From a virus: a stretch of 64,000 bases of DNA. The position numbers were made by a program, and so were the translations under genes. Shown piece by piece: positions 32,430 through 51,206 of this stretch (position 1 is the stretch's first letter; each line of letters begins with the position of its first letter). Location: the IMG/VR virus record IMGVR_UViG_3300026189_000002, positions 49,063-113,062 of that record; one strand, given 5' to 3'. The notes under the pieces were generated by a model, which saw only the letters and a program-made list of their open reading frames with translations, searched no databases and was not told the DNA's origin.

Positions 32430-33831
32430 AGATTTTTTGCCAGCTCGATCAAGCAATCCGCATTTTGGACAATACGGAAAATCTTTTCAAGAAAAAATAT
32501 TTCAATCTCTTATTTCAGATAGAGAATGGGCTGCACAAATGGTTGAGGTTATGGATCCAAACTTTTTTGATGTATCATACCTAGAATACTTAAGTGACAA
32601 GTTTTTTTCTTACTATAGAAAATATAAATGTTTTCCAACTCTAGGATTGCTTGTAACGATTATAAAAGATTCTCTTTCGGAAAGAGACGATACTATATTA
32701 AGAGATCAGATCGTACAGTTTTTACACAGAATAAAATCTAGCCCAGATGTTAGTGATCTTGCTTTTGTTAAGGATAAGTCTTTAGATTTTTGCAGAAAGC
32801 AAGCATTCAAAGATGCTCTAGAGCAGGCAGTAGACTTGATACAAACAGAGAAATTTGAACACGTATTAACTCTTATGAGGCACGCTGTTTCTGTAGGATT
32901 ACCTAGCAGCACTGGACACGACTTTTTTGAAGATGCTGAAGCAAGATTTGTAAAAATAAATAGGCAGGTATGCCCAACTGGTCTTCCTAGGCTAGATGCA
33001 AAAGATGTGCTTCAGGGAGGTCTAGGTCGAGGCGAAATAGGCGTAGTTACTGCAAACACTGGCGTAGGAAAGTCACATTGGCTTGTAGCTATGGGTGCTA
33101 ACGCAATGAGAAACGGTAAAAATGTTTTACACTATACGTTTGAATTAACGGAGCACGCCGTAGGACTTAGGTATGATTCGAATCTTTGCAATATACCTTC
33201 TAATGAAGTGCAAGATAGAAAATCTAAAGTTATGAAGCATTATGAAGATTCGGATTACGGAAGATTAGTAATTAAAGAATATCCTACAGGCTCAGCTACG
33301 GTTATAACGATTAGAAACCACGTAGAAAAACTAATGCTTAAAGGATTTAGGCCCTCTGTTATTATAATCGATTATGCAGATATTATGAGGTCTACTAGAA
33401 GTTATGACTCTTTAAGGCATGAACTAAAGCTAATTTACGAAGAATTAAGAAATCTAGCTATGGACTTAAACATACCGATTTGGACAGCTTCTCAAGCAAA
33501 CAGGGATTCTGCAAATTCTGATATTGTAGGACTAGAAAATATGTCTGAAGCCTATGGAAAAGCTATGGTAGCAGATTTAGTAATATCGATATCTAGAAAA
33601 GCAACAGAAAAATCTACAGGATCAGGAAGATTGTTTGTAGCAAAAAATAGAGCAGGAAGAGACGGAATACTTTTTCCTATTCACATTGACACTTCCAGAA
33701 GTACTTTTGAAATATTAGATGAAAATTCGCTAACTCTAGAAGAAGCAGTAAATCAAAACCAAAATGATATGAAGATGCTGCTTAAGAAGAAGTGGAAACA
33801 GGTGGAGGCTGAAAATGGAAAAGCAGGTTAG
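32422..33831 (+). CDS. dnaB: Replicative DNA helicase (DnaB / T4 gp41-like)
   Basis: Walker A 'ANTGVGKS', 'IKEYPT', 'IIIDYAD', 'WTASQANR', 'KNRAG'. Confidence 0.92.
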   Translation: MSEDFLPARSSNPHFGQYGKSFQEKIFQSLISDREWAAQMVEVMDPNFFDVSYLEYLSDKFFSYYRKYKCFPTLGLLVTIIKDSLSERDDTILRDQIVQFLHRIKSSPDVSDLAFVKDKSLDFCRKQAFKDALEQAVDLIQTEKFEHVLTLMRHAVSVGLPSSTGHDFFEDAEARFVKINRQVCPTGLPRLDAKDVLQGGLGRGEIGVVTANTGVGKSHWLVAMGANAMRNGKNVLHYTFELTEHAVGLRYDSNLCNIPSNEVQDRKSKVMKHYEDSDYGRLVIKEYPTGSATVITIRNHVEKLMLKGFRPSVIIIDYADIMRSTRSYDSLRHELKLIYEELRNLAMDLNIPIWTASQANRDSANSDIVGLENMSEAYGKAMVADLVISISRKATEKSTGSGRLFVAKNRAGRDGILFPIHIDTSRSTFEILDENSLTLEEAVNQNQNDMKMLLKKKWKQVEAENGKAG

Positions 33832-34303
33832 TTTTAGATTTACTTCTGATTGTTTAGATGAATTAGTTTCTAGCAATCAAAGCCCAAGAGAAGTTGCAGA
33901 TCAAATAATAGGCGTTGGCCACATAGATCTTTTTAATATGTCTGAAGACACGACAATCTTAGGAAGAACAAAGTATGTAGCTTTCGGAGAAGAAAACTGC
34001 AGCACTATTAAAACCGGAATTAAATTAGCTTTGCCCGAAGATGTAATTGGAATACTTTCGGGAACTGAAGAGCTAAATAATACCGGAGTGATAGTAAGGC
34101 AAAATATATTTTTTCACGGAAATACAAACGAGGTTTTAGTTAGTTTTTTAAACTTAGGTGAAAAAGACGTTGTTTTAAAGAAAGGGTTTAGGGTTCCTGC
34201 AAAAATTATTTTTGTTTCTTCGGCTAAGTCTATAGACGTCGTTAGCGATTTAGAATACTTAGATAAGACAGCCGTCGATCAACAAAATTCGGAGAATCAA
34301 TGA
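33815..34303 (+). CDS. Degenerate trimeric dUTPase-fold protein
   Basis: 'HIDL', '[11 protein letters not shown]', '[24 protein letters not shown]' retained; RSG, GVIDxDY and RGxxGFGS motifs absent. Confidence 0.55.
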
Positions 34304-37619: not shown

Positions 37620-38221
37620 TGAAGTACGTATCTAAAATATCGCCATTAATAAAAGAAGTAGAGCTAAGAAAAAACCCTATAATGATAAGGGTTAATAAGT
37701 TTGATGAAGATTCTGCAAGAAAATTCTCTGCTGAAATAGCTGCTGCTCACAATACGGGTCAAAAAATAATACCAATTGTTATTGACTCTTACGGCGGCCA
37801 AGTTTATAGCCTAATGTCTATGATTGGAGCAATACAAAATTCAGAACTTCCTATAGCCACAATAGTAGAAGGAAAAGCGATGTCGTGCGGCGCTGTACTT
37901 TTTTCTTTTGGTGAAGAAGGAAGAAGATTTATGGATAAAAATGCAACGATTATGATACACGATGTTTCTTCTATGGATTTTGGAAAAGTAGAAGAACTAA
38001 AAGCAGGCGCAAAAGAGGCAGACAGATTAAATAAAATAATATATAAAATGATGGCTCAAAACTGTGGTCATGATGATGACTACTTTATGGAAATAGTCGA
38101 CAAGAAAAAGCATGCAGATTGGTTTATTGACGCTAAAGAAGCATCCAAGCACAACTTGGCCAACCACATAAGAATTCCCACTATTGATATTGACATATCG
38201 GTTAAGATTAGGCTAAAATGA
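37619..38221 (+). CDS. clpP: ClpP-family serine protease
   Basis: 'IDSYGG.V', 'GKAMSCG' (Ser), 'MIHDVS' (His), 'DWFI.A.EA' (Asp). Confidence 0.85.
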   Translation: MKYVSKISPLIKEVELRKNPIMIRVNKFDEDSARKFSAEIAAAHNTGQKIIPIVIDSYGGQVYSLMSMIGAIQNSELPIATIVEGKAMSCGAVLFSFGEEGRRFMDKNATIMIHDVSSMDFGKVEELKAGAKEADRLNKIIYKMMAQNCGHDDDYFMEIVDKKKHADWFIDAKEASKHNLANHIRIPTIDIDISVKIRLK

Positions 38222-38937
38222 AAATTGATCTGTATGATGACGGAATAGGCTCTCTGGATTACGTTCAACACGTTGGTTCCGATCTAACAATAGTAAATTC
38301 CGCTAGAGTATCTTTTGGAAAAGAAAAAGAGGAAATAGACGAAAAGGATAAAAAGCTAATAAGCTACCTTATTAAGCATAAGCATACTTCTACTCTAGAG
38401 CACAATATAATTACTTTTAGGTGCAAAGTTCCATTGTTTGTTAGGTCTCAGCATCACAGGCATAGAACTTGGTCTTACAATGAAATAAGCAGAAGGTATA
38501 CTAGTATAGACATGCAGTTCTATGAGCCTAAAAGTTTCAGAACTCAGCACAAGTCAAATAGGCAATCAAGTAACGACGAATTAATTAATCCTGATATAAA
38601 CGATTTTAATAATAGGCCATTACCTGTTTCTGCATATTATGCAAATCAGGCAGTCAAGGATCACAATACCAGAAGTTTAGGATTATATAATAAGCTTCTG
38701 GAAAAGGGTATTTGTAGAGAGCAAGCCAGGGGAGTTTTGCCACAAAGTCTTTATACTGAGTATTATGCAACTTGCAATCTTAATAATCTATTAAAGTTTG
38801 TTTCTCTTAGAACGCATGAAGGAGCGCAATGGGAAATAAGGCAGTTGGCTTTAGCCATGTTAAAAGTTGCCAAAGACTTGTGGCCGATCACTATAGAATC
38901 TTATGAGAGTGTAAACGATGTCAAATTATCCGGTTAG
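38218..38937 (+). CDS. thyX: Flavin-dependent thymidylate synthase ThyX
   Basis: 'ARVS', 'HTSTLEH', 'RHRTWSYNEISRRY', 'REQARGVLP', 'AQWEIR'. Confidence 0.96.
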   Translation: MKIDLYDDGIGSLDYVQHVGSDLTIVNSARVSFGKEKEEIDEKDKKLISYLIKHKHTSTLEHNIITFRCKVPLFVRSQHHRHRTWSYNEISRRYTSIDMQFYEPKSFRTQHKSNRQSSNDELINPDINDFNNRPLPVSAYYANQAVKDHNTRSLGLYNKLLEKGICREQARGVLPQSLYTEYYATCNLNNLLKFVSLRTHEGAQWEIRQLALAMLKVAKDLWPITIESYESVNDVKLSG

Positions 38938-43835: not shown

Positions 43836-44657
43836 TTGAAAAAATTTAAAAGCTTGCAAGATGTTTTTCTAAACTACTGTAAAAACATCACAAAAGCGCC
43901 TTTAGTAAATAGCAGAGGTTCTACTCAAAGAGAACTGTTGTTTGAATCGTTTGAAATAACAGACCCTACTGCAATAGACATAAAAGTAGATGATAGAAAG
44001 TTTTCTACAAATTATGCCTTAACCGAATGGCTATGGTATCTTTCTTGCGATAGAAACGTAAACAACATAGGTAAAATGGCAAAAATATGGAATCAGATAT
44101 CTGACGAAAAAGGTGAAGTAGAGTCAAACTATGGAACCTACATAGCTCCTCAATGGTCTTGGATATTAGGAGAGTTAACTGACGATAGAGACTCTAGAAG
44201 AGCAACCATAGTAATAAACCAAGTTCATCATAAGTTTTCTAACGAAAAAGACTATCCTTGTACCCAGTACATACAATTCTTCATAAGAGAAAATAAGCTT
44301 CACATGGGTGTAAACATGAGATCCAACGATTTAATTTTTGGATTGTGTAACGACGTTTTTACATTTTGTCTTTTTCAACAGCTAATGTTAAATGATTTAA
44401 ATGACAGGGGCGCAGAGTTGGAGCTAGGAAGTTATTTTCATCATGCTGGAAGTCTTCACGTTTACGAGAGGCATTTTAGTATGGTTTCTGGTATTAATTC
44501 AAAAAATCACAGTAGCGAAGAGTGCAATAAATTTGAGCTTTCTTCGGGAATAACAATGTCTGGGTGCCCAGTCTTGCCTCAAATGGATATGCCCAAGCAG
44601 GAAATGCAAAAATATACTAAGAGCGTAAAGGAGAAAATATTCCGTGAATATTCTTGA
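43836..44657 (+). CDS. Thymidylate-synthase-fold enzyme, predicted dCMP hydroxymethylase-like (T4 gp42 type)
   Basis: TTG start after AAGGAG; 'DSRRA', 'DYPCT', 'MRSNDLIFGLCND' (Asp at the E. coli ThyA Asn177-equivalent position), 'GSLHVYERH'. Confidence 0.8.
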   Translation: MKKFKSLQDVFLNYCKNITKAPLVNSRGSTQRELLFESFEITDPTAIDIKVDDRKFSTNYALTEWLWYLSCDRNVNNIGKMAKIWNQISDEKGEVESNYGTYIAPQWSWILGELTDDRDSRRATIVINQVHHKFSNEKDYPCTQYIQFFIRENKLHMGVNMRSNDLIFGLCNDVFTFCLFQQLMLNDLNDRGAELELGSYFHHAGSLHVYERHFSMVSGINSKNHSSEECNKFELSSGITMSGCPVLPQMDMPKQEMQKYTKSVKEKIFREYS

Positions 44658-44910
44658 AGAAGCAAACTCAATAGTAAACCAGAGGTCAGAAGAAAAAGAA
44701 AGGCAGTATGGTCCTTTTAGCGAAGGAATGAAAAGGGCAGCTTCAATAGCTTCAGGCATGTCGGGAAAAGATGTTGATGCAAACGATATGTACATTGCTT
44801 TAGTAGCTTTAAAGCTTAGTCGTCAAAGCTATCATTTTAAAGATGATAATTTACTGGACGCTGTGGCCTATTTAGGAGCTTGGCACAATTTTATAAAGGA
44901 TGAAAAATGA
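44644..44910 (+). CDS. DUF6378-like small helical protein (nucleotide-modification associated)
   Basis: 'ILEEA..IV..R....RQYG', 'LVALKLSR....FK.DNLLDAVAY'. Confidence 0.65.
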   Translation: MNILEEANSIVNQRSEEKERQYGPFSEGMKRAASIASGMSGKDVDANDMYIALVALKLSRQSYHFKDDNLLDAVAYLGAWHNFIKDEK

Positions 44911-45344
44911 AAATTTGTAAAACAAGAGAAGTAAAAACGCCGAACAGAGGAACCCCGGAGTCTGCAGGTATAGACTTTTTTGTTCCTGACGATTTTGAAA
45001 AGTCAGAAATACAACCCGGCCAAGCTATATTTGTACCCAGCGGAATAAAAGCTGATGTTCCTAAGTCGCACGCCCTGATTGCTTTTAATAAAAGCGGAGT
45101 AGCCCTAAGGAAAAATTTAGCAGTAGGAGCTTGCGTAGTAGATGAAGATTACCAGGGAGAAATACACCTACATCTTTATAATTTTGGAACTGAACCTGCA
45201 ACTGTATCGCCAGGAGAAAAGCTTGTTCAAATGGTGTTAGTACCCGTATCTTATGGAGACGTAGAAGTAGTAAACGAAGAATCTCTCTTTCAGCAAGAGT
45301 CCGAAAGAGGATCAGGCGGATTTGGCAGTACTGGAATTTTCTAA
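44907..45344 (+). CDS. dut: Trimeric dUTPase (variant motifs)
   Basis: 'SAGIDF', 'NKSG', 'VVDEDYQGEI', 'ERGSGGFGSTG'. Confidence 0.88.
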   Translation: MKICKTREVKTPNRGTPESAGIDFFVPDDFEKSEIQPGQAIFVPSGIKADVPKSHALIAFNKSGVALRKNLAVGACVVDEDYQGEIHLHLYNFGTEPATVSPGEKLVQMVLVPVSYGDVEVVNEESLFQQESERGSGGFGSTGIF

Positions 45345-46348
45345 TGTCTTTAGTTATTAGTCCAATAACAAATCACGCAAATAGAGACCACAGCCATAGA
45401 ACGGGCTGGGGAAGAATGTGGGCTGCATCTTTAAATAGCAAGCTAGGCTTTAATAAAGACTGGACTAAAGAAGACAAGGTTTATTTAGAACACGGAATGG
45501 AATTTAACGCTAAGTCTAAGGGTGTAAACGTATTTCTAAAAGAACCAAAGTCGTGGGATAAACTAGCTGAAAAAGCTAAAATGTTATCTAACTTTAATGG
45601 AGAATTATACTCTTTAGATATAGACTGTCCGGACTATGGAGAAAGACTAAAGACAAGAGTTAGGCCTCATTCTACAGACAACTATAAAAATTTAGATTTT
45701 GATAAAATATCAGCAGTTTGTAAGAAAGCTAAAACAATTAGGCAAAAAGATTTAAACAAAAAAGGCTTGGTTTTAGGCGATTCTCACTCTTTATCTGCCT
45801 GGAGAAAAGATGCGCATCTTTGTAGAAATGATGGACAGACTTTAAATGGAGCAATCAATAAGGGTTTTGATTTATGGATAGACGATTTTAAAAAAACTAA
45901 TTTAAATTTTATTAGAACCTATTTTGGAAATATTGATATAAGGCATCACATCTGTAGAATATCAACAGGACAAAAAGAGCAGTTATCGACTGTAAGCAGT
46001 CTTGTTTCTAGATATTTTAATGAACTAAATAGAGTTAAAGAAAAATACAGCCTTGACTTAATAGAAGTTGTGGCTGTTTTGCCTATAGAAAATATATCTA
46101 GAAAGCTTCCTAAAACTGGATACTATAAAGGAAAACCATATTGGGGATCTTGGGAGGAAAGAAACAGAGTGCATATTCATTTTAATGAAGAGTGCGAAAA
46201 ACTTTGTTTAAAAAATGGTTTTAGTTTTATAAAATGGCCTAACAGTTTTTACAACGAAAAACTAGAAATGGGATTTGAAAACATGGAAAAGCCTAGGTCA
46301 GTTCATGTTAGTCCTAAAAAATATATGTGGGAGGCATTTAGTGACTAA
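45344..46348 (+). CDS. SGNH/GDSL-fold protein with N-terminal extra domain
   Basis: Block I 'LVLGDSH', block III-like 'YFGNIDIR', block V-like 'PRSVH'. Confidence 0.6.
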   Translation: MSLVISPITNHANRDHSHRTGWGRMWAASLNSKLGFNKDWTKEDKVYLEHGMEFNAKSKGVNVFLKEPKSWDKLAEKAKMLSNFNGELYSLDIDCPDYGERLKTRVRPHSTDNYKNLDFDKISAVCKKAKTIRQKDLNKKGLVLGDSHSLSAWRKDAHLCRNDGQTLNGAINKGFDLWIDDFKKTNLNFIRTYFGNIDIRHHICRISTGQKEQLSTVSSLVSRYFNELNRVKEKYSLDLIEVVAVLPIENISRKLPKTGYYKGKPYWGSWEERNRVHIHFNEECEKLCLKNGFSFIKWPNSFYNEKLEMGFENMEKPRSVHVSPKKYMWEAFSD

Positions 46349-47387
46349 AATAACAACAAATTTATATTTTGAAGATTTTTTAAGATATTACGAACTTGCA
46401 AAAAAAGTTCAGAACGAATGCAACCTAGGCGGTAAACCTTACGTAGGTTCATGCGGTGACGACTTAATTGAGAATGTTACGATATACGATACTGTAGAAA
46501 GAAGGCACGCTGGCTTTCAAAATATGCTTCAGGATATATGGCTAGGATCTAAGGCTCCAAAGTTTTATAAGTGGGACGAGGAACATAAAAAAAGAAATAA
46601 AACGTATGACAACCTTCATGAAAGATTTAGTAAATACGAGTGGTTGTTCTTATTCGTTCTTCACAGAATAACAGGATCAGGCGCTTCTTTTGAATCTGAT
46701 CACGGATATAGAAACACAGCTATTCCTGATTTAGTTGGTCAAAAATCGTATTATATGATGATGAATACAGTAAGGTATTATCCAAAACCTATGTATACTA
46801 GCATAGGAAACCAAATACCTGCATTTCCAAAGCCTTCAATGGGATATCAAACAGGAGGAAAATTTTGGTGGGGCCAGCATTCTATTAATTTGGTAGACGA
46901 TGTTTGGAAATTTATAGATGGCATAAATTCGTCAGGAAAAAAAGCCAGCATAAGAGAAATAGTTGATTTTATGTGCGAATGGAATAAAGAACGCGGTATG
47001 AAAAGGTTTCATTTTCAATATACTGCTATTGCTGCAGACTTAGCGGATTATTATCCGGATATTGTTGATGAAACTAGTCACATGTATTATGGAAAAAACG
47101 CAAAGGAAGCCATGGATCTTTTTGCAGAAAAGCCTAAGAGCGTAAATAAAAACGATTTCTATGATTTAGTAATGGAAGAATCTAAAAAGAAAACTGGCGG
47201 ACTTCCCAAAGACTTGGAAGACGTTATGTGCGACTATATAAGGTATGTTGAAAACTATATACCGGATAACAAGCAAAAAACCTATTCGCACCTAGATAGA
47301 ACAAAAGTTTGGAATACTAGTCTAATAAAAAATCACCCTAAAGGACGTCAAAAGTGGATGCTGAACACACCAGAGTGGAAATGGTAG
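46341..47387 (+). CDS. aGPT-Pplase / amino acid:DNA transferase superfamily protein (DNA base hypermodification)
   Basis: GTG start after GGAGG; 'DDLI....YDTVERR', 'FQYTAIAADL..Y', 'YGKNAKEA', 'DLEDVMCDYIRY' parallel the aGPT-Pplase F.AY.I..DL / GPGA..G / E..LCE..KY motifs. Confidence 0.6.
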   Translation: MTKITTNLYFEDFLRYYELAKKVQNECNLGGKPYVGSCGDDLIENVTIYDTVERRHAGFQNMLQDIWLGSKAPKFYKWDEEHKKRNKTYDNLHERFSKYEWLFLFVLHRITGSGASFESDHGYRNTAIPDLVGQKSYYMMMNTVRYYPKPMYTSIGNQIPAFPKPSMGYQTGGKFWWGQHSINLVDDVWKFIDGINSSGKKASIREIVDFMCEWNKERGMKRFHFQYTAIAADLADYYPDIVDETSHMYYGKNAKEAMDLFAEKPKSVNKNDFYDLVMEESKKKTGGLPKDLEDVMCDYIRYVENYIPDNKQKTYSHLDRTKVWNTSLIKNHPKGRQKWMLNTPEWKW

Positions 47388-47396
47388 GTTTATCAC

Positions 47397-48275
47397 ATGG
47401 CACATAATAATCACGTAATAGATGGAATTAATAAAGATTTATCTATAAGAAGTAGATCTGAATGGTTAAAAATTACCGAAAACTGGAAAGATCCTTATGG
47501 AATTCCGGAGGTCTCAGTTCACGATGGAGTTCACGTAGTCAGAGACGATTATATGGTCGGTTCAAAATGTCGATTTGCAGACCTTCTGATGAAAAATACT
47601 AAAGAAGATACCTTAGTTTATGTACAACCTAGATTTGGATTAGCTGGACCTTCTATACTTGAAGCTGCTAGCAGGTATAATAAAAAAGTGGTATTGTTTA
47701 TGCCTTCATCCAAAAAAGTTTCTCATCACCAAGCAGTGTGTATAGAAAGAGGGGCTGAGGTAAAATTTAGAAGAATAGCAGCCATGCCGGTTTTAAATAA
47801 ATACGCAAGAGAATGGGCAGAAGAAAATGGGGCATCTTTTATTCCGCTGGGCTTAAAACACGAATTAGTAACAGCTTGTGCAGTAAGAGTGGTTGAAAAC
47901 TTGAGGCAAAAGCATGGAATGCCAGGACACGTCTGGTTTGCAATATCTACCGGCGTATTAGGTAGATCGTTACAAATAGGTTGGGATAAATCTAAGCATC
48001 ATGCCGTAGCAGTGTCTAGAAATTTAAAGTCTGGTGAGCTAGGATCTGCCTCCGTAGTATCAGACCCTAAATCTTTTACGGCAAAAGAAAACAAGGACGA
48101 TCTTCCTCCTTTTCCAACTGTTTCTAATTACGATGGAAAAGTTTGGAAGTATATTCCTAAAGGCAGGCTAGAAGAAAATCACTGGATGTGGAATGTTGGA
48201 AAAGAGCCTGAATTAATTAACCAGTCCATATATGATGAAGTTGATAGCTATAGAGACTGGGGAGAAGTAAGATAA
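47397..48275 (+). CDS. Fold-type II PLP-dependent enzyme (ACC deaminase / D-cysteine desulfhydrase-like; putative DNA-base tailoring enzyme)
   Basis: 'VRDD..VGSKCR' with Schiff-base Lys (codon 47565), 'FIPLG', 'AISTG', 'YDGKVW'. Confidence 0.75.
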   Translation: MAHNNHVIDGINKDLSIRSRSEWLKITENWKDPYGIPEVSVHDGVHVVRDDYMVGSKCRFADLLMKNTKEDTLVYVQPRFGLAGPSILEAASRYNKKVVLFMPSSKKVSHHQAVCIERGAEVKFRRIAAMPVLNKYAREWAEENGASFIPLGLKHELVTACAVRVVENLRQKHGMPGHVWFAISTGVLGRSLQIGWDKSKHHAVAVSRNLKSGELGSASVVSDPKSFTAKENKDDLPPFPTVSNYDGKVWKYIPKGRLEENHWMWNVGKEPELINQSIYDEVDSYRDWGEVR

Positions 48276-48331: not shown

Positions 48332-48892
48332 ATGTATGAACCACAATTAAGAATTTATACCGGTCCAATGTTTGGATCTAAGACTACAAAAATGCTAGCT
48401 TTTTTAGAAAGGTGCTCTTATCAATCTAGAAAAGTTGTTGCTTTTAAACCCAAAATAGACGAAAGGTATTCAGAGGGTGAAATATGCACCCATTTTGGAA
48501 TGAAATTTCCGGCTATAAATGTCAATTCAGGCTCTGATATAATAAGAGAATCTTCAGGTTTTGATGTCATAGGTATTGACGAGGCTTTTATGATAGATGA
48601 ATGTTCTGATGCCGTTTTAAATATTTTAAAGCAGGGTAAAACAATAGCAGTTTCTTCAATACAAATATCTGCGAATGGTAATCCTTTCGATGAAATAAAA
48701 AATATGCTTCCTTGGGCTACCCACATAGAAGTTTGCCCCGCAGTTTGTCCTGTTACAGGAAAAGATGCCTATTATACCGTTAGCAAAGTAAGTAGCCTCT
48801 CAGAAATAGAAGTCGGCGGAGCTGATATTTATGAACCCAGGGCTTGGACGCATACGCCCTTTATGAACCATAAATACGGGAGTAATTTATGA
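48332..48892 (+). CDS. tdk: Thymidine kinase (type II), divergent
   Basis: 'GPMFGSKTT', 'KPKIDERY', 'IGIDEA', 'EVGG...YEP'. Confidence 0.8.
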   Translation: MYEPQLRIYTGPMFGSKTTKMLAFLERCSYQSRKVVAFKPKIDERYSEGEICTHFGMKFPAINVNSGSDIIRESSGFDVIGIDEAFMIDECSDAVLNILKQGKTIAVSSIQISANGNPFDEIKNMLPWATHIEVCPAVCPVTGKDAYYTVSKVSSLSEIEVGGADIYEPRAWTHTPFMNHKYGSNL

Positions 48893-49758
48893 TTGAACCA
48901 TCTAGCGTAGACTGTGTAATATATCACGCTGATTGTACAGACGGTTTCGGGGCAGCTTATTCTGCTTGGAAACTATTAGGCAATAGGGCAGAATATCACG
49001 CATGCAAGCATGGAACTCCTCCGCCTGATGTAAAAGGTAAAAACGTGGTCGTGTTAGATTTTGCTTTTAATAATGCTACCACTAAAAAAATGATTGAAAT
49101 AGCAGATTCTTATTTAGTGATCGATCATCACAAGACTGCAATGGTCGAGTTGCACGACATACCCAACACGCATTTCGATATGACTAAATCTGGCGCTATG
49201 TTATCTTGGGAGTTTTTCCATCCGGGCAAAGAGCCTCCTAAGTTTATTAGGTATATCATGGACAGAGACCTATGGACTTGGGAACTAGAGTATTCTAAAG
49301 AGTTTAGTGCTGCTTTTGATATGGTTCCTTTTGAGTTTGAAGAGTTTGAAAAATTTGAAGATGATTCAGTTTTTGACGATGCGGTGAAAAGAGGAAGCTA
49401 TATTTTAGCATACTCTAAAACTGTAGTTAAAAAAGTTTGTGAAAAAGCGCAACAAAGAAAATTAGACGAAAAAGACGTTCTAGTCGTTAATGCTTCTCAC
49501 TGGATGTCAGAAATAGGAACTAGGTTAGCCCCAGACTGCGACTTAGCCATGATATGGTACTGGGATCATGAAGCAAAGCACACCAAGGTTAGCCTAAGAG
49601 CTTTTCATGATATAGTTGATGTTGGAGAGATTGCTAAAAAATTTGGAGGTGGCGGCCATAGAAAAGCCGCAGGTTTCCAACTACCTGCAGGAAAACACAT
49701 AGAAGATATTTTCGATAAGCCTAAAAGGTCTAGAACTAGAAAATCTAAGCAGGAATAG
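48889..49758 (+). CDS. DHH/DHHA1 phosphoesterase (NrnB-like)
   Basis: 'YHADCTDG', 'VIDHHKT', 'DRDLW', 'SLR', 'GGGGHRKAAG'. Confidence 0.88.
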   Translation: MIEPSSVDCVIYHADCTDGFGAAYSAWKLLGNRAEYHACKHGTPPPDVKGKNVVVLDFAFNNATTKKMIEIADSYLVIDHHKTAMVELHDIPNTHFDMTKSGAMLSWEFFHPGKEPPKFIRYIMDRDLWTWELEYSKEFSAAFDMVPFEFEEFEKFEDDSVFDDAVKRGSYILAYSKTVVKKVCEKAQQRKLDEKDVLVVNASHWMSEIGTRLAPDCDLAMIWYWDHEAKHTKVSLRAFHDIVDVGEIAKKFGGGGHRKAAGFQLPAGKHIEDIFDKPKRSRTRKSKQE

Positions 49759-49760
49759 CC

Positions 49761-50186
49761 ATGAACAGGCCTAGCTGGGATCAAATATGGATGGAGTTTG
49801 CAGAATTAATATCTAATAGATCTTATGATCCAAGATATAAAGTTGGAGCGGTAGTAGTAACAGAAGATAATACGCAAGTTTTGTCTGTAGGTTACAACGG
49901 TAATTATTCTGGCGGACCAAACGAAGTAGAGTCTACTGTGCCCGGACAGTCAGGAATGCTTCATGCAGAAATCAACGCGCTGCTAAAAATGGATTATAAC
50001 AATCCAAAAAATAAAAAAATATACTTGACTCTATCTCCCTGCAGATCTTGTTCTAAAGCCATAGTAAACGCTGGTATAGATGAAGTTATTTTTAAAGAAC
50101 AGTATAGAGATATGTCCGGCATTGAAATACTTAAGAATACTGGCATTTTAGTTAGAAAATATTCGGAGATTTTTGATGAGCAATAG
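49761..50186 (+). CDS. dCMP deaminase
   Basis: 'RPSWD', 'VGAVVV', 'GYNG', 'HAEINAL', 'SPCRSC'. Confidence 0.9.
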   Translation: MNRPSWDQIWMEFAELISNRSYDPRYKVGAVVVTEDNTQVLSVGYNGNYSGGPNEVESTVPGQSGMLHAEINALLKMDYNNPKNKKIYLTLSPCRSCSKAIVNAGIDEVIFKEQYRDMSGIEILKNTGILVRKYSEIFDEQ

Positions 50187-50526
50187 ATTTTTAGAGTCCG
50201 ATTTAGAGGATGAGCATGGCAACATACTGATATCGCCAGGTTTAAAAGTTAGGCATATAGACTCTCAGTACGAATACACAGTCGACAGCGTTGTAAAAAA
50301 TGGTGAAGACATAGAGGTAATTCTAAGACTTCCTACAGAGCCTAGATTTGAGCCTAGTAGTAGCTCTGAGTTAATACAATCAAGATCTTCGAGTAGTCCT
50401 AATATCATGTACGAAATAGATCCCAACGCTGTTTTTTACGAACCAGATTCTGAGGAAGAAGATGAGGGCGAAGGTTTAATTTCTGTAACTCAATCTGAAT
50501 TCGAAAAAGAATACGAGGTTAAATAA
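50176..50526 (+). CDS. Acidic hypothetical protein
   Basis: GGAG SD; coupled to neighbours. Confidence 0.55.
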   Translation: MSNRFLESDLEDEHGNILISPGLKVRHIDSQYEYTVDSVVKNGEDIEVILRLPTEPRFEPSSSSELIQSRSSSSPNIMYEIDPNAVFYEPDSEEEDEGEGLISVTQSEFEKEYEVK

Positions 50527-51206
50527 TGAATTCAATTAAAAAAAATTTACAGTCTGCAATAGACGAAGTTGTTTCAAGCAAAATAAACGAAGCTTATGTT
50601 TCTGAGCCTAAAAAATTTAATCTTAAGACCGATTTCATATCGGAAAAAATTAAAAAATATAGACAGGAAGATTTCGAAAACTATGTAAAAGCTTTAAATA
50701 AAGTTTCTGCTAAATTAGACGGAGCAGATAGAGAAAACGCTAACGATAAGCACAGTGATTTTAGAAGCCTAAAACTTGATGAAGTGCATAATATGAATGC
50801 AGCTTTTTTAAGAGCTCTTCATTTTGAAAATATAAGTGACCTATCCAGTAAGATAACCATGGACATGTTTTGTTTTTTAAGGCTGGAAAGAGATTTTGGT
50901 TCATTCGATAACTGGCAAAAAGATTTTATAGCATGCTGTCTATCTTCTAGAGACGGTTACGCAATGACTGGATACTCTGTTTTTCTTAAGAGGTATGTTA
51001 ACTTCGTTATTGACACAGAGGCTTTAAATGTACCTATGGGAGTAATCCCAGTTGTAGTATTAGACGTAGCAGAAGGTTCTTACGTAAAAGATTATATGGG
51101 CGATAGAAGATCTTACGTTTTAGCTATGATGAAAGAGTTTAACTGGTCTCATATTGAAGAGAGATTCGAAAGAGCTGAAGCAGTCTCAAAGGTTTTTGCA
51201 AAATGA
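50526..51206 (+). CDS. Fe/Mn superoxide dismutase-fold protein, predicted inactive
   Basis: 'YVKALN', 'FGSFDNWQKDF', 'PVVVLDVAEGSY..DY...R..YV......NWS.IE.RF'; WEHAY is replaced by AEGSY and the His ligands are absent. Confidence 0.7.
   Translation: MNSIKKNLQSAIDEVVSSKINEAYVSEPKKFNLKTDFISEKIKKYRQEDFENYVKALNKVSAKLDGADRENANDKHSDFRSLKLDEVHNMNAAFLRALHFENISDLSSKITMDMFCFLRLERDFGSFDNWQKDFIACCLSSRDGYAMTGYSVFLKRYVNFVIDTEALNVPMGVIPVVVLDVAEGSYVKDYMGDRRSYVLAMMKEFNWSHIEERFERAEAVSKVFAK

What the first reader, a model, noticed from the sequence alone, without database searches (positions are those of the whole stretch)
43836..48275. Candidate novel cytosine hypermodification operon: dCMP-type TS enzyme + aGPT-Pplase/AADT-like + PLP enzyme + SGNH protein
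Seen: six overlapping or abutting genes right after dnaE (TS-fold, DUF6378-like, dUTPase, SGNH-fold, aGPT-Pplase-like, fold-II PLP enzyme). Established: aGPT-Pplase/amino acid:DNA transferases and PLP enzymes hypermodify 5-hydroxymethyl-URACIL DNA in phages such as phiW-14, ViI and M6, after a P-loop 5-hmdU DNA kinase activates the base. Here the TS-fold partner has the dCMP-type signature, dTMP is supplied separately (ThyX, TK, dCMP deaminase, dUTPase), no 5-hmdU DNA kinase or glycosyltransferase is visible in the operon, and an SGNH protein is present instead. Inference: hmC is made, an amino acid or amine is attached and then PLP-tailored, with SGNH acting as an acyl-activating, transferring or trimming step. 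This would give a cytosine base I cannot match to a described pathway.
Basis: partly seen in the sequence, partly recalled or inferred. Interest (0 to 1): 0.9.

Follow-up and report, generated by a model that had tools for sequence, protein, structure and literature searches.

The report
Kinase-less hydroxymethylcytosine DNA hypermodification cassette
An uncultured marine T4-like phage makes T4's hydroxymethylcytosine, but instead of sugar-adding enzymes it carries three conserved, physically linked enzymes that most likely put an undescribed amine-type decoration on the cytosines of its DNA.

Summary
The six genes are real, at the stated coordinates, and translationally coupled downstream of dnaE. 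Gene 1 is a T4 gp42-type dCMP hydroxymethylase. It has Asp at ThyA positions 177 and 143 and keeps Asp169, so it is neither a dTMP synthase nor a 5-hydroxy-dCMP synthase. ORF4 is a chimera of a T4 beta-glucosyltransferase-like N-domain and an SGNH domain with invariant Ser147 and His321. ORF5 has the HhH-glycosylase-derived fold of amino acid:DNA transferases; its best solved match is PaMx11 gp46. ORF6 is a homologue of M6 gp52, a PLP decarboxylase shown to act on DNA-borne amino acids.

In 80 related viral contigs, ORF4 accompanies ORF5 in 67, ORF6 in 63 and the TS homologue in 55. All 55 TS homologues are Asp-type. Natural ORF4::ORF5 fusion proteins exist. I found no kinase or glycosyltransferase.

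Best reading: hydroxymethylcytosine in DNA is hypermodified after replication, with ORF4 replacing the usual DNA kinase. The chemistry is inferred. I found no paper describing this pathway. This scan has already flagged the same cassette on many other genomes.

The parts
43836..44657 (+). T4 gp42-type dCMP hydroxymethylase (5hmdCMP synthase), 273 aa, TTG start
   Evidence: Best solved relative is T4 dCMP hydroxymethylase 1b5e (E 1.5e-25), then CMP hydroxymethylase MilA. Canonical TS scores only 1e-12. BLASTP against T4 gp42 gives 34% identity, E 4e-31. 'DYPCTQ' supplies Cys146 and L143D. 'RSNDLIFGLCND' keeps D169 and carries N177D. The meaning of these signatures comes from PMC13326640 and PMC8670742.
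44644..44910 (+). DUF6378 small helical protein, role unknown (possibly nucleotide-pool related)
   Evidence: Pfam DUF6378 E 1.1e-10. Conserved next to the TS gene in the closest relatives L002, L006, L008 and in L018.
44907..45344 (+). dUTPase-fold enzyme
   Evidence: Pfam dUTPase E 3.7e-23 and phrog_135. No similarity to T4 gp56.
45344..46348 (+). ORF4, a two-domain protein: beta-glucosyltransferase-like N-domain (about residues 1-130) plus SGNH-fold domain (133-334). Proposed enzyme that acylates, and so activates, hmC in DNA
   Evidence: AF2 model pLDDT 90.5. SGNH fold: VIA Z 15.4, rmsd 2.8, 171 aa to 2hsj; Foldseek E 4e-6. Invariant G145-D146-S147-H148 and H321 in 33 homologues. N-domain against a 7-member BGT profile: hhalign Prob 90.4%, E 1.4e-6, residues 1-108 to BGT 1-114. 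Fused to ORF5-type or Pfam HMUDK_hel domains in other phages.
46341..47387 (+). ORF5, an amino acid:DNA transferase-like (aGPT-Pplase/HMUDK_hel superfamily, HhH-glycosylase-derived fold) protein. An ATG at 46305 is the alternative start
   Evidence: AF2 model pLDDT 92.4. Best of 48,161 solved chains is PaMx11 gp46/PUGT 8z2m_A (Z 9.8, rmsd 4.2, 209 aa), followed by the queuine-salvage enzyme DUF2419 and HhH glycosylases. BFVD Foldseek hits include AADT-named proteins, SP10 5-hmdU DNA kinase and Pplase1. E293 is conserved in 36/36, D294 in 35/36 and C297 in 35/36 homologues.
47397..48275 (+). ORF6, a fold-type-II PLP enzyme homologous to the M6 gp52 decarboxylase
   Evidence: hhalign of the ORF6 family against M6 gp52: Prob 95.5%, E 1.4e-8, 221 columns. 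phrog_7093 E 4.5e-38. K57 and S184-T185-G186 are invariant. Weak PALP and cysteine-synthase hits.
48332..50186 (+). Downstream nucleotide-pool genes of the same run: thymidine kinase, DHH/DHHA1 phosphoesterase, dCMP deaminase
   Evidence: Pfam TK 3.9e-29, DHHA1 2.6e-8, dCMP_cyt_deam_1 3.2e-20. A dCMP deaminase is linked to the cassette in 25 of 80 loci.
38218..38937 (+). ThyX, an independent dTMP source
   Evidence: Pfam Thy1 E 1.2e-50.

Best explanation
The cluster hypermodifies cytosine by a route that needs no DNA kinase.

Before replication, the gp42-type enzyme converts dCMP to 5-hydroxymethyl-dCMP. ThyX, TK, dCMP deaminase and dUTPase keep dTTP supply separate. 5hmC is then incorporated into the DNA.

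After replication, ORF4 docks on hmC-DNA through its beta-glucosyltransferase-like N-domain. Its SGNH domain (Ser147/His321) transfers an acyl group onto the 5-CH2OH. This takes the activating role that the P-loop 5-hmdU DNA kinase has in thymidine pathways.

ORF5 is AADT-like and is its partner, fused to it in some phages. It flips the base and attacks C6 with Cys297, helped by Glu293 and Asp294. The leaving group is expelled and an amine or amino-acid nucleophile adds to the exocyclic methylene.

ORF6, the M6 gp52-like PLP enzyme, then decarboxylates the appended amino acid to leave an amine.

Status of the steps:
- Shown by sequence or fold: the enzyme identities, their tight linkage, the fusions, and the exclusive association with Asp-type TS homologues.
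- Inferred: that the substrate is DNA, that ORF4 acylates, the order of steps, and the identity of the adduct.

My odds are about 0.8 that ORF4-6 modify an hmC-derived base, about 0.65 that this happens on DNA with these roles, and about 0.35 for acyl activation specifically.
For: TS signature and T4 gp42 homology were read against PMC13326640 and PMC8670742.

At least 554 viral contigs encode ORF5 relatives. In the 80 fetched:
- ORF4 is present in 67, ORF6 in 63 and the TS homologue in 55, mostly adjacent and co-oriented, in varying orders.
- All 55 TS homologues carry 'RSND....G...D', as T4 does.
- In T4-like relatives the cassette lies between gene 42 and genes 45/44/62, where T4 has beta-gt.

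ORF4::ORF5 fusion proteins exist: P0136, P0137, P0166, P0127, P0128, P0193, P0124, P0125, P0208 and P0267. Their N-terminal parts score E 1e-68 to 1e-100 against the ORF4 profile. Their C-terminal parts score E 1e-43 to 1e-118 against the ORF5 profile for nine of them, and 2e-18 for the truncated P0267. Other ORF4 fusions carry a Pfam HMUDK_hel domain above its cut-off (P0122, P0126).

The ORF4 N-domain is homologous to the BGT N-domain, and its SGNH Ser and His are invariant. ORF5's best solved match is the glycine:DNA transferase PUGT. PUGT's catalytic Cys247 and metal ligands Glu243/Thr244 (PMC11472151) have the same spacing as ORF5's conserved E293-D294-x-x-C297. ORF6 is homologous to M6 gp52, the PLP decarboxylase of the 5-NedU pathway. 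An ORF6-like domain is fused to a DNA methyltransferase in an Erythrobacter phage.

No kinase was found in the genome or among the conserved neighbours.
Against: Nothing is biochemical.
- ORF5 and 45 relatives give no Pfam hit.
- hhalign finds no significant link from ORF5 to PaMx11 gp46, M6 gp51 or Pfam-positive HMUDK_hel domains. Superfamily membership therefore rests on fold alone, at a Z value (9.8) that helical proteins can reach by chance.
- The Cys297 to Cys247 equivalence was not superposed.
- DUF2419, which acts on a mononucleotide, scores nearly as well (Z 9.2).
- SGNH enzymes are mostly hydrolases, and no acyl donor is evident.
- M6 gp52 needs a radical-SAM isomerase upstream, which is absent here.
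- No gp1-like dNMP kinase was seen, and the genome is only about 34% complete.
Confidence: 0.65

Rival explanations
1. ORF4 and ORF5 form one enzyme. ORF5 is only the base-recognition and base-flipping module, as the helical domain is in 5-hmdU DNA kinases. The SGNH domain installs the final group, an O-acyl or O-aminoacyl ester on hmC. ORF6 trims that group. No substitution at C7 occurs.
For: ORF4 is fused either to ORF5-type domains or to Pfam HMUDK_hel domains at the equivalent position. Aeromonas T4-like phages have the ORF4-like plus helical fusion and gene 42, but no ORF6 homologue. BFVD hits to kinase helical domains score about as well as hits to AADTs.
Against: ORF5 keeps an almost invariant E-D-x-x-C motif with the spacing of PUGT's metal ligand and catalytic Cys. 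A pure binding module would not need this. Many loci also carry a second ORF5 paralogue with the same motif.
Confidence: 0.15
2. The three enzymes act before replication on free 5hm-dCMP or related nucleotides, or they make a small-molecule donor. The finished base is then incorporated by the polymerase.
For: The genes sit inside a nucleotide-metabolism operon with dUTPase, TK and dCMP deaminase. The mononucleotide hydrolase DUF2419 is the second-best fold match of ORF5 (Z 9.2).
Against: ORF4's N-domain matches the N-terminal domain of beta-glucosyltransferase, the DNA-binding half of that enzyme by my recollection of the BGT-DNA structures. ORF6's characterised homologue gp52 acts on DNA. An ORF6-like domain is fused to a DNA methyltransferase. 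The best fold match of ORF5 is a DNA-bound transferase.
Confidence: 0.08
3. The TS homologue makes 5-methyl-dCMP or 5-hydroxy-dCMP, so the downstream enzymes work on a different handle.
For: Asp177 alone is shared by all three product classes.
Against: An acidic residue at position 143 and a retained Asp169 match the hydroxymethylase signature and not the D169N signature of 5hodCMP synthases. A methyl group offers no handle for group transfer.
Confidence: 0.05
4. The linkage is incidental. ORF5 is a DNA-repair glycosylase, ORF4 an esterase and ORF6 a metabolic PLP enzyme, with no role in base modification.
For: HhH glycosylases populate the fold-match list of ORF5. SGNH and PALP are broad families.
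Against: The genes co-occur with gp42-type enzymes in dozens of divergent phages, in changing gene order. ORF4::ORF5 fusions exist. The family is almost absent from cellular genomes: 12 MAG contigs among 185,579 species.
Confidence: 0.03

Closest known systems
Thymidine hypermodification pathways of phages M6, PaMx11, ViI and PhiW-14 (Lee et al. 2018, 2021; PMC5889632, PMC8989533)
   Same: A TS-homologue makes a 5-hydroxymethylpyrimidine nucleotide. After replication, an HhH-derived transferase works at C5 and a PLP enzyme tailors the product. ORF6 is homologous to M6 gp52. ORF5's best solved fold match is PaMx11 gp46.
   Different: The base is cytosine (Asp-type TS in 55/55 linked loci). There is no P-loop 5-HMUDK. 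A BGT-N/SGNH protein is the obligate partner instead. There is no radical-SAM isomerase, FAD lyase or acetyltransferase. The ORF5 family is not detected by the Pfam aGPT-Pplase/HMUDK_hel models.
T4 gene 42 / beta-glucosyltransferase system
   Same: A gp42-type dCMP hydroxymethylase is present. The hmC-modifying genes sit beside gene 42 near genes 45/44/62 in T4-like relatives. The ORF4 N-domain is homologous to the BGT N-domain.
   Different: There is no UDP-glucose-binding domain and no glycosyltransferase. An SGNH domain replaces the donor-binding domain. Two further enzymes (ORF5, ORF6) are required.
5-carbamoyloxymethylcytosine pathway found by MetaGPA (PMC8670742)
   Same: A non-sugar decoration of hmC in uncultured phages. 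An Asp-type TS homologue is linked to a group-transfer enzyme and to dCMP deaminase and MazG-type genes.
   Different: That pathway uses a TobZ-type carbamoyltransferase, apparently acting on nucleotides. None is present here.
ORF233c of Aeromonas T4-like phages 44RR2.8t, 31 and 25 (uncharacterised)
   Same: Its N-terminal 335 aa match the ORF4 profile at E 1e-93. These phages have a gp42 with the hydroxymethylase signature and no glucosyltransferase (PMC2993671).
   Different: It is a 795-aa fusion with a divergent helical domain (Pfam HMUDK_hel E 0.0036, below the cut-off). No ORF6 homologue was found in these phages.

Membership tests
T4 gp42-type dCMP hydroxymethylase (5hmdCMP synthase) | Thymidylate-synthase fold with the catalytic Cys (E. 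coli ThyA C146) | tested here: met
   Pfam PF00303 E 9.7e-20. 'YPCTQ' aligns with T4 'FMCTN'.
T4 gp42-type dCMP hydroxymethylase (5hmdCMP synthase) | Asp at ThyA N177 (dCMP specificity) | tested here: met
   'GLCND' aligns with T4 'GFRND'. The same residue is present in all 55 linked homologues.
T4 gp42-type dCMP hydroxymethylase (5hmdCMP synthase) | Acidic residue at ThyA L143 (hydroxymethyl rather than methyl product) | tested here: met
   'D-Y-P-C' against T4 'D-F-M-C'. The criterion comes from PMC13326640.
5-hydroxy-dCMP synthase (RB69 gp48 type) | Asn at ThyA D169 | tested here: not met
   'RSND' keeps Asp. The criterion comes from PMC13326640.
Amino acid:DNA transferase / aGPT-Pplase (Pfam aGPT-Pplase, HMUDK_hel) | Match to the Pfam family models | tested here: not met
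   No hit at E <= 1 for 36 members or at E <= 0.1 for 10 divergent members. PF18723 finds nothing in the genome.
Amino acid:DNA transferase / aGPT-Pplase (Pfam aGPT-Pplase, HMUDK_hel) | HhH-glycosylase-derived helical fold like PaMx11 gp46 | tested here: met
   8z2m_A is the top match of 48,161 chains (Z 9.8, rmsd 4.2, 209 aa). BFVD Foldseek gives prob 1.0 to AADT-named proteins, SP10 HMUDK and Pplase1. The Z value is moderate for a helical protein.
Amino acid:DNA transferase / aGPT-Pplase (Pfam aGPT-Pplase, HMUDK_hel) | Catalytic Cys with an acidic metal ligand four residues upstream (PUGT E243/C247) | tested here: inconclusive
   E293 (36/36) and C297 (35/36) have the same spacing. No residue-level superposition was possible. 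hhalign to gp46 is not significant.
Amino acid:DNA transferase / aGPT-Pplase (Pfam aGPT-Pplase, HMUDK_hel) | Works with a P-loop 5-hmdU DNA kinase on hmU | tested here: not met
   No kinase was found in the 113 kb or among the conserved neighbours. All linked TS homologues are dCMP-type.
M6 gp52-type PLP-dependent DNA-amino-acid decarboxylase | Full-length homology, with the Schiff-base Lys and the phosphate loop | tested here: met
   hhalign Prob 95.5%, E 1.4e-8, 221 columns. 'GSKCR' aligns with gp52 'FSKIR', and 'ISTG' with 'ISSG'. K57 is invariant. The Pfam PALP score of 19.3 bits is below the 35-bit cut-off.
SGNH/GDSL hydrolase superfamily | SGNH fold with the block I Ser and the block V His | tested here: met
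   Z 15.4 to 2hsj and Z above 10.5 for all 50 rows listed. GDSH 145-148 and H321 are invariant. The canonical DxxH Asp is absent and block III reads GNID. There is no Pfam Lipase_GDSL hit for this protein.
T4 beta-glucosyltransferase (GT-B) | Both GT-B domains, including the UDP-glucose-binding C-domain | tested here: not met
   Only residues 1-108 align, with BGT 1-114 (Prob 90.4%). The rest of the protein is SGNH fold.
5-hmdU DNA kinase (5-HMUDK) | P-loop kinase domain plus HMUDK_hel domain | tested here: not met
   No PF18723 match and no suitable Walker-A protein in the genome.

The most novel reading that the evidence does not exclude
hmC in DNA is activated by O-acylation rather than phosphorylation. 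The enzyme is a chimera of the DNA-binding half of beta-glucosyltransferase and an SGNH acyltransferase. An AADT-like enzyme then displaces the ester with a side-chain-linked amino acid, and a gp52-like PLP enzyme decarboxylates it. The product would be a cationic base such as 5-(2-aminoethoxy)methylcytosine, unknown in any organism, yet common in marine and freshwater T4-like phages.
Probability: 0.3. Interest if true: 0.85.

Novelty: new variant of a known kind. Interest (0 to 1): 0.78.

Why it matters
All described amino-acid or polyamine hypermodifications of phage DNA are on thymine and start with a DNA kinase. The known decorations of hmC are sugars and a carbamoyl group. This cassette would add a new class of cytosine base and a new way of activating a nucleobase hydroxymethyl group.

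It would also explain what several gene-42-positive, glucosyltransferase-negative phages do with their hmC. That question was left open for Aeromonas phages 44RR, 31 and 25 in 2010 (PMC2993671).

The cassette is abundant in uncultured aquatic T4-like phages. It therefore bears on restriction and CRISPR evasion in the sea, and on sequencing and enzymatic-conversion artefacts in viromes. It is also a possible source of new DNA-modifying enzymes for biotechnology.

Tried and rejected

Searches that found nothing:
- ORF5 has no tblastn match in 50,697 phage records and no PDB sequence match, even as a profile.
- Foldseek against the PDB gave no match to the ORF5 model at E <= 0.001 (best 0.29); gp46/PUGT appeared only at rank 47 (E 2.1). 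VIA-align was needed.
- hhalign of the ORF5 profile against 44RR ORF233c, PaMx11 gp46, M6 gp51, P0126 and P0122 was not significant.
- ORF6 gave no PDB hit as a single sequence and only a weak cysteine-synthase hit as a profile. No longer fused forms were found.

Ideas rejected:
- The local hhalign match of ORF5 C212 to gp46 C247 was rejected, because C212 is conserved in only 20/36 homologues against 35/36 for C297.
- The ORF4 8-43 similarity to the Hpy99I HNH region (E 0.007) is probably chance.
- T4 gp56 is unrelated to either dUTPase-fold gene.
- DUF6378 shows no BLASTP link to the DUF1599 gene of relatives.

Limits of other checks:
- Sequencing-run search returned only assembled contigs from marine metagenomes. 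There were no raw nanopore reads that could show miscalled cytosines.
- Four literature searches found no paper on an hmC plus AADT-like pathway.

Full report
**Context.** The window is bases 49063-113062 of a 113,062-bp IMG/VR virus record that CheckV estimates at about 34% complete. Coding is almost entirely on the + strand. The window holds:
- gp32-like, RecA/UvsX-like, DnaB-like and RNR genes, ThyX and a ClpP-like gene upstream;
- a 1196-aa DnaE;
- then the cluster in question.

Near-identical DNA occurs only in contigs from marine metagenomes of several studies. Earlier notes of this scan call the virus a giant marine T4-like phage.

**Observation.** Six ORFs follow dnaE, separated by overlaps of up to 14 nt or gaps of 9-10 nt. 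The run continues with TK, a DHH phosphoesterase and dCMP deaminase. Promoter-like and terminator-like sites are at background level. Pfam and PHROG confirm the TS fold, DUF6378, dUTPase, TK, DHH and dCMP deaminase. ORF4 and ORF5 have no Pfam hit, and ORF6 has a sub-threshold PALP hit. The only correction is that ORF5 may start at the ATG at 46305, as its 98%-identical 360-aa homologue implies, rather than at the GTG at 46341.

**The TS homologue.**
- Its best solved relatives are T4 dCMP hydroxymethylase (E 1.5e-25) and the CMP hydroxymethylase MilA. Canonical thymidylate synthases score 1e-12 or worse.
- It is 34% identical to T4 gp42 (E 4e-31).
- Three diagnostic positions are defined in PMC13326640 and PMC8670742. 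ThyA N177 is Asp here (dCMP substrate). L143 is Asp (hydroxymethyl rather than methyl product). D169 is retained, so the D169N mark of 5-hydroxy-dCMP synthases is absent.
- ThyX, TK and dCMP deaminase supply dTMP independently.

**ORF5.**
- The family has 290 members at E <= 0.001 in the 5.8-billion-protein set. It has 186 cluster representatives at 50% identity and at least 554 IMG/VR loci.
- It is present in only 12 MAG contigs among 185,579 prokaryotic species genomes and in no cultured phage.
- The AF2 model is confident (pLDDT 92.4).
- Against 48,161 solved chains the best match is PaMx11 gp46/PUGT, the glycine:DNA transferase (Z 9.8, rmsd 4.2, 209 residues). Next come the queuine-salvage enzyme DUF2419 and HhH DNA glycosylases.
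- BFVD Foldseek finds AADT-named proteins, the SP10 5-hmdU DNA kinase, aGPT-Pplase1 and PhiW-14 helical-domain proteins.
- Sequence-level links fail: no Pfam hit in 46 members and no significant hhalign to gp46, M6 gp51 or Pfam-positive HMUDK_hel domains.
- PUGT uses Cys247 to attack C6, and Glu243/Thr244 hold a metal at O4 (PMC11472151). ORF5 has an almost invariant E293-D294-x-x-C297 with the same spacing. I take Cys297 as the probable nucleophile. This is an inference and was not superposed.

**ORF4.**
- The AF2 model (pLDDT 90.5) has an SGNH domain at residues 133-334. VIA gives Z 15.4 to 2hsj, and all 50 rows listed score above 10.5. Foldseek gives E 4e-6 to sialate O-acetylesterase.
- G145-D146-S147-H148 and H321 are invariant in 33 homologues.
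- The N-domain recalled T4 beta-glucosyltransferase. hhalign against T4 BGT alone gave 29%. Against a seven-member BGT profile it gave Prob 90.4%, E 1.4e-6, with ORF4 1-108 aligned to BGT 1-114.
- ORF4 is therefore the N-terminal half of BGT joined to an acyl-transfer/hydrolase domain in place of the UDP-glucose domain. That this half is the DNA-binding half comes from my recollection of the BGT-DNA structures and was not tested here.

**ORF6.**
- K57 (in 'VGSKCR') and S184-T185-G186 are invariant.
- The family profile aligns over 221 columns with M6 gp52 (Prob 95.5%, E 1.4e-8). gp52 is the PLP-dependent decarboxylase of the 5-NedU pathway (PMC8989533). The PHROG hit is consistent with this.
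- An ORF6-like PALP domain is fused to an N6/N4 DNA methyltransferase in Erythrobacter phage vB_EliS_R6L.

**Linkage.**
- In the 80 fetched loci, ORF4 accompanies ORF5 in 67, ORF6 in 63, the TS homologue in 55 and a dCMP deaminase in 25.
- Gene orders differ between lineages, which argues for selection on the set.
- All 55 TS homologues have the T4-like 'RSND....G...D'.
- Neighbours in most loci are T4 core genes: gp45, gp44, gp62, RegA, UvsX, gp41, gp46/47. A MazG-type pyrophosphatase is also common. The cassette thus sits where T4 has gene 42 and beta-gt.
- In 34 loci a second, distant ORF5 paralogue (X) lies between ORF5 and ORF6. It is absent from this genome.
- No kinase appears among the conserved neighbours.

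**Fusions.**
- Ten proteins carry an ORF4-like N-terminal part (E 1e-68 to 1e-100). Nine of them have an ORF5-like C-terminal part scoring E 1e-43 to 1e-118. The truncated tenth, P0267, scores 2e-18. The domain order matches the gene order here.
- Other ORF4 fusions carry a Pfam HMUDK_hel domain above its cut-off (P0122, P0126).
- Aeromonas T4-like phages carry a 795-aa ORF4-like fusion with a weak HMUDK_hel hit.
- Phage 44RR2.8t has a gp42 with the hydroxymethylase signature. It was long known to lack glucosyltransferases (PMC2993671).
- The architecture 'catalytic domain plus helical base-handling domain' parallels the 5-hmdU DNA kinase. The SGNH protein takes the kinase's place.

**Mechanism.** The best-supported reading is post-replicative hypermodification of hmC. 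ORF4 activates or loads the hydroxymethyl group by acyl transfer. ORF5 carries out Cys-assisted substitution at C7 with an amine or amino acid. ORF6 decarboxylates. PLP decarboxylation needs a free alpha-amine, and no radical-SAM isomerase is present. I therefore expect a side-chain-linked amino acid, by chemical analogy with the O-serinyl route of ViI, although a tblastn search with M6 gp52 found no ViI-type phages among its hits. These steps are inference. The rivals are listed separately: a single acyl or aminoacyl transferase, nucleotide-level action, a different TS product, and incidental linkage.

**Novelty.** Four literature searches and the key papers describe AADT-type chemistry only for thymine. 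For hmC they describe only sugars and a carbamoyl group. This scan has already reported the same cassette on many other genomes, with the same reading. Those are unchecked AI notes, not independent evidence.
- the TS signature test against the 5hoC class;
- the ORF4::ORF5 fusions;
- the BGT-profile and gp52 homologies;
- the conserved E-D-x-x-C motif;
- cultured Aeromonas phages as an experimental handle.

Noticed in passing
window 33815-34303: A second, divergent dUTPase-fold gene (Pfam E 1.9e-7) lies directly upstream of the RNR genes. It could be a dCTP-directed enzyme and is unrelated to T4 gp56.
   Followed up: partly
window 48889-49758: A DHH/DHHA1 phosphoesterase (phrog_4771 E 2.4e-75) sits between TK and dCMP deaminase. 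A role in the nucleotide pool is possible.
   Followed up: no
window 50526-51206: A 226-aa protein with an Fe/Mn superoxide dismutase C-terminal domain (E 2.4e-12).
   Followed up: no
L083:4402-5925 (Aeromonas phage 44RR2.8t ORF234c): A sodium:solute symporter (Pfam SSF E 6e-53) is encoded directly upstream of the ORF4-like fusion ORF233c. It might import the small-molecule donor or nucleophile.
   Followed up: no
L082 (Erythrobacter phage vB_EliS_R6L gp1): An 807-aa protein joins an N6/N4 DNA methyltransferase to a gp52/ORF6-like PALP domain. It lies about 1.4 kb from a PAPS-reductase-like gene. This may be a different DNA modification system.
   Followed up: partly
P0122 (979 aa, metagenomic): A triple fusion of an FkbM-type methyltransferase, a Pfam HMUDK_hel domain and an ORF4-like BGT-N/SGNH domain.
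   Followed up: partly
L036, L044, L046, L047, L059, L062: These loci carry ORF5 plus paralogue X only. No TS homologue, ORF4 or ORF6 lies within 7-10 kb, so a reduced or different version of the system exists.
   Followed up: no
e.g. L014:9600-10000, L049:9574-9999: A small gene with a weak uracil-DNA-glycosylase superfamily hit (E 0.0018) lies between dCMP deaminase and ORF5 in 21 related loci. It is absent from this window.
   Followed up: no
window 45365-45472 (ORF4 residues 8-43): 'DHSHRTGWGR' resembles the HNH region of Hpy99I (E 0.007) but lacks the Cys ligands. It lies inside the BGT-like domain and is probably chance.
   Followed up: partly
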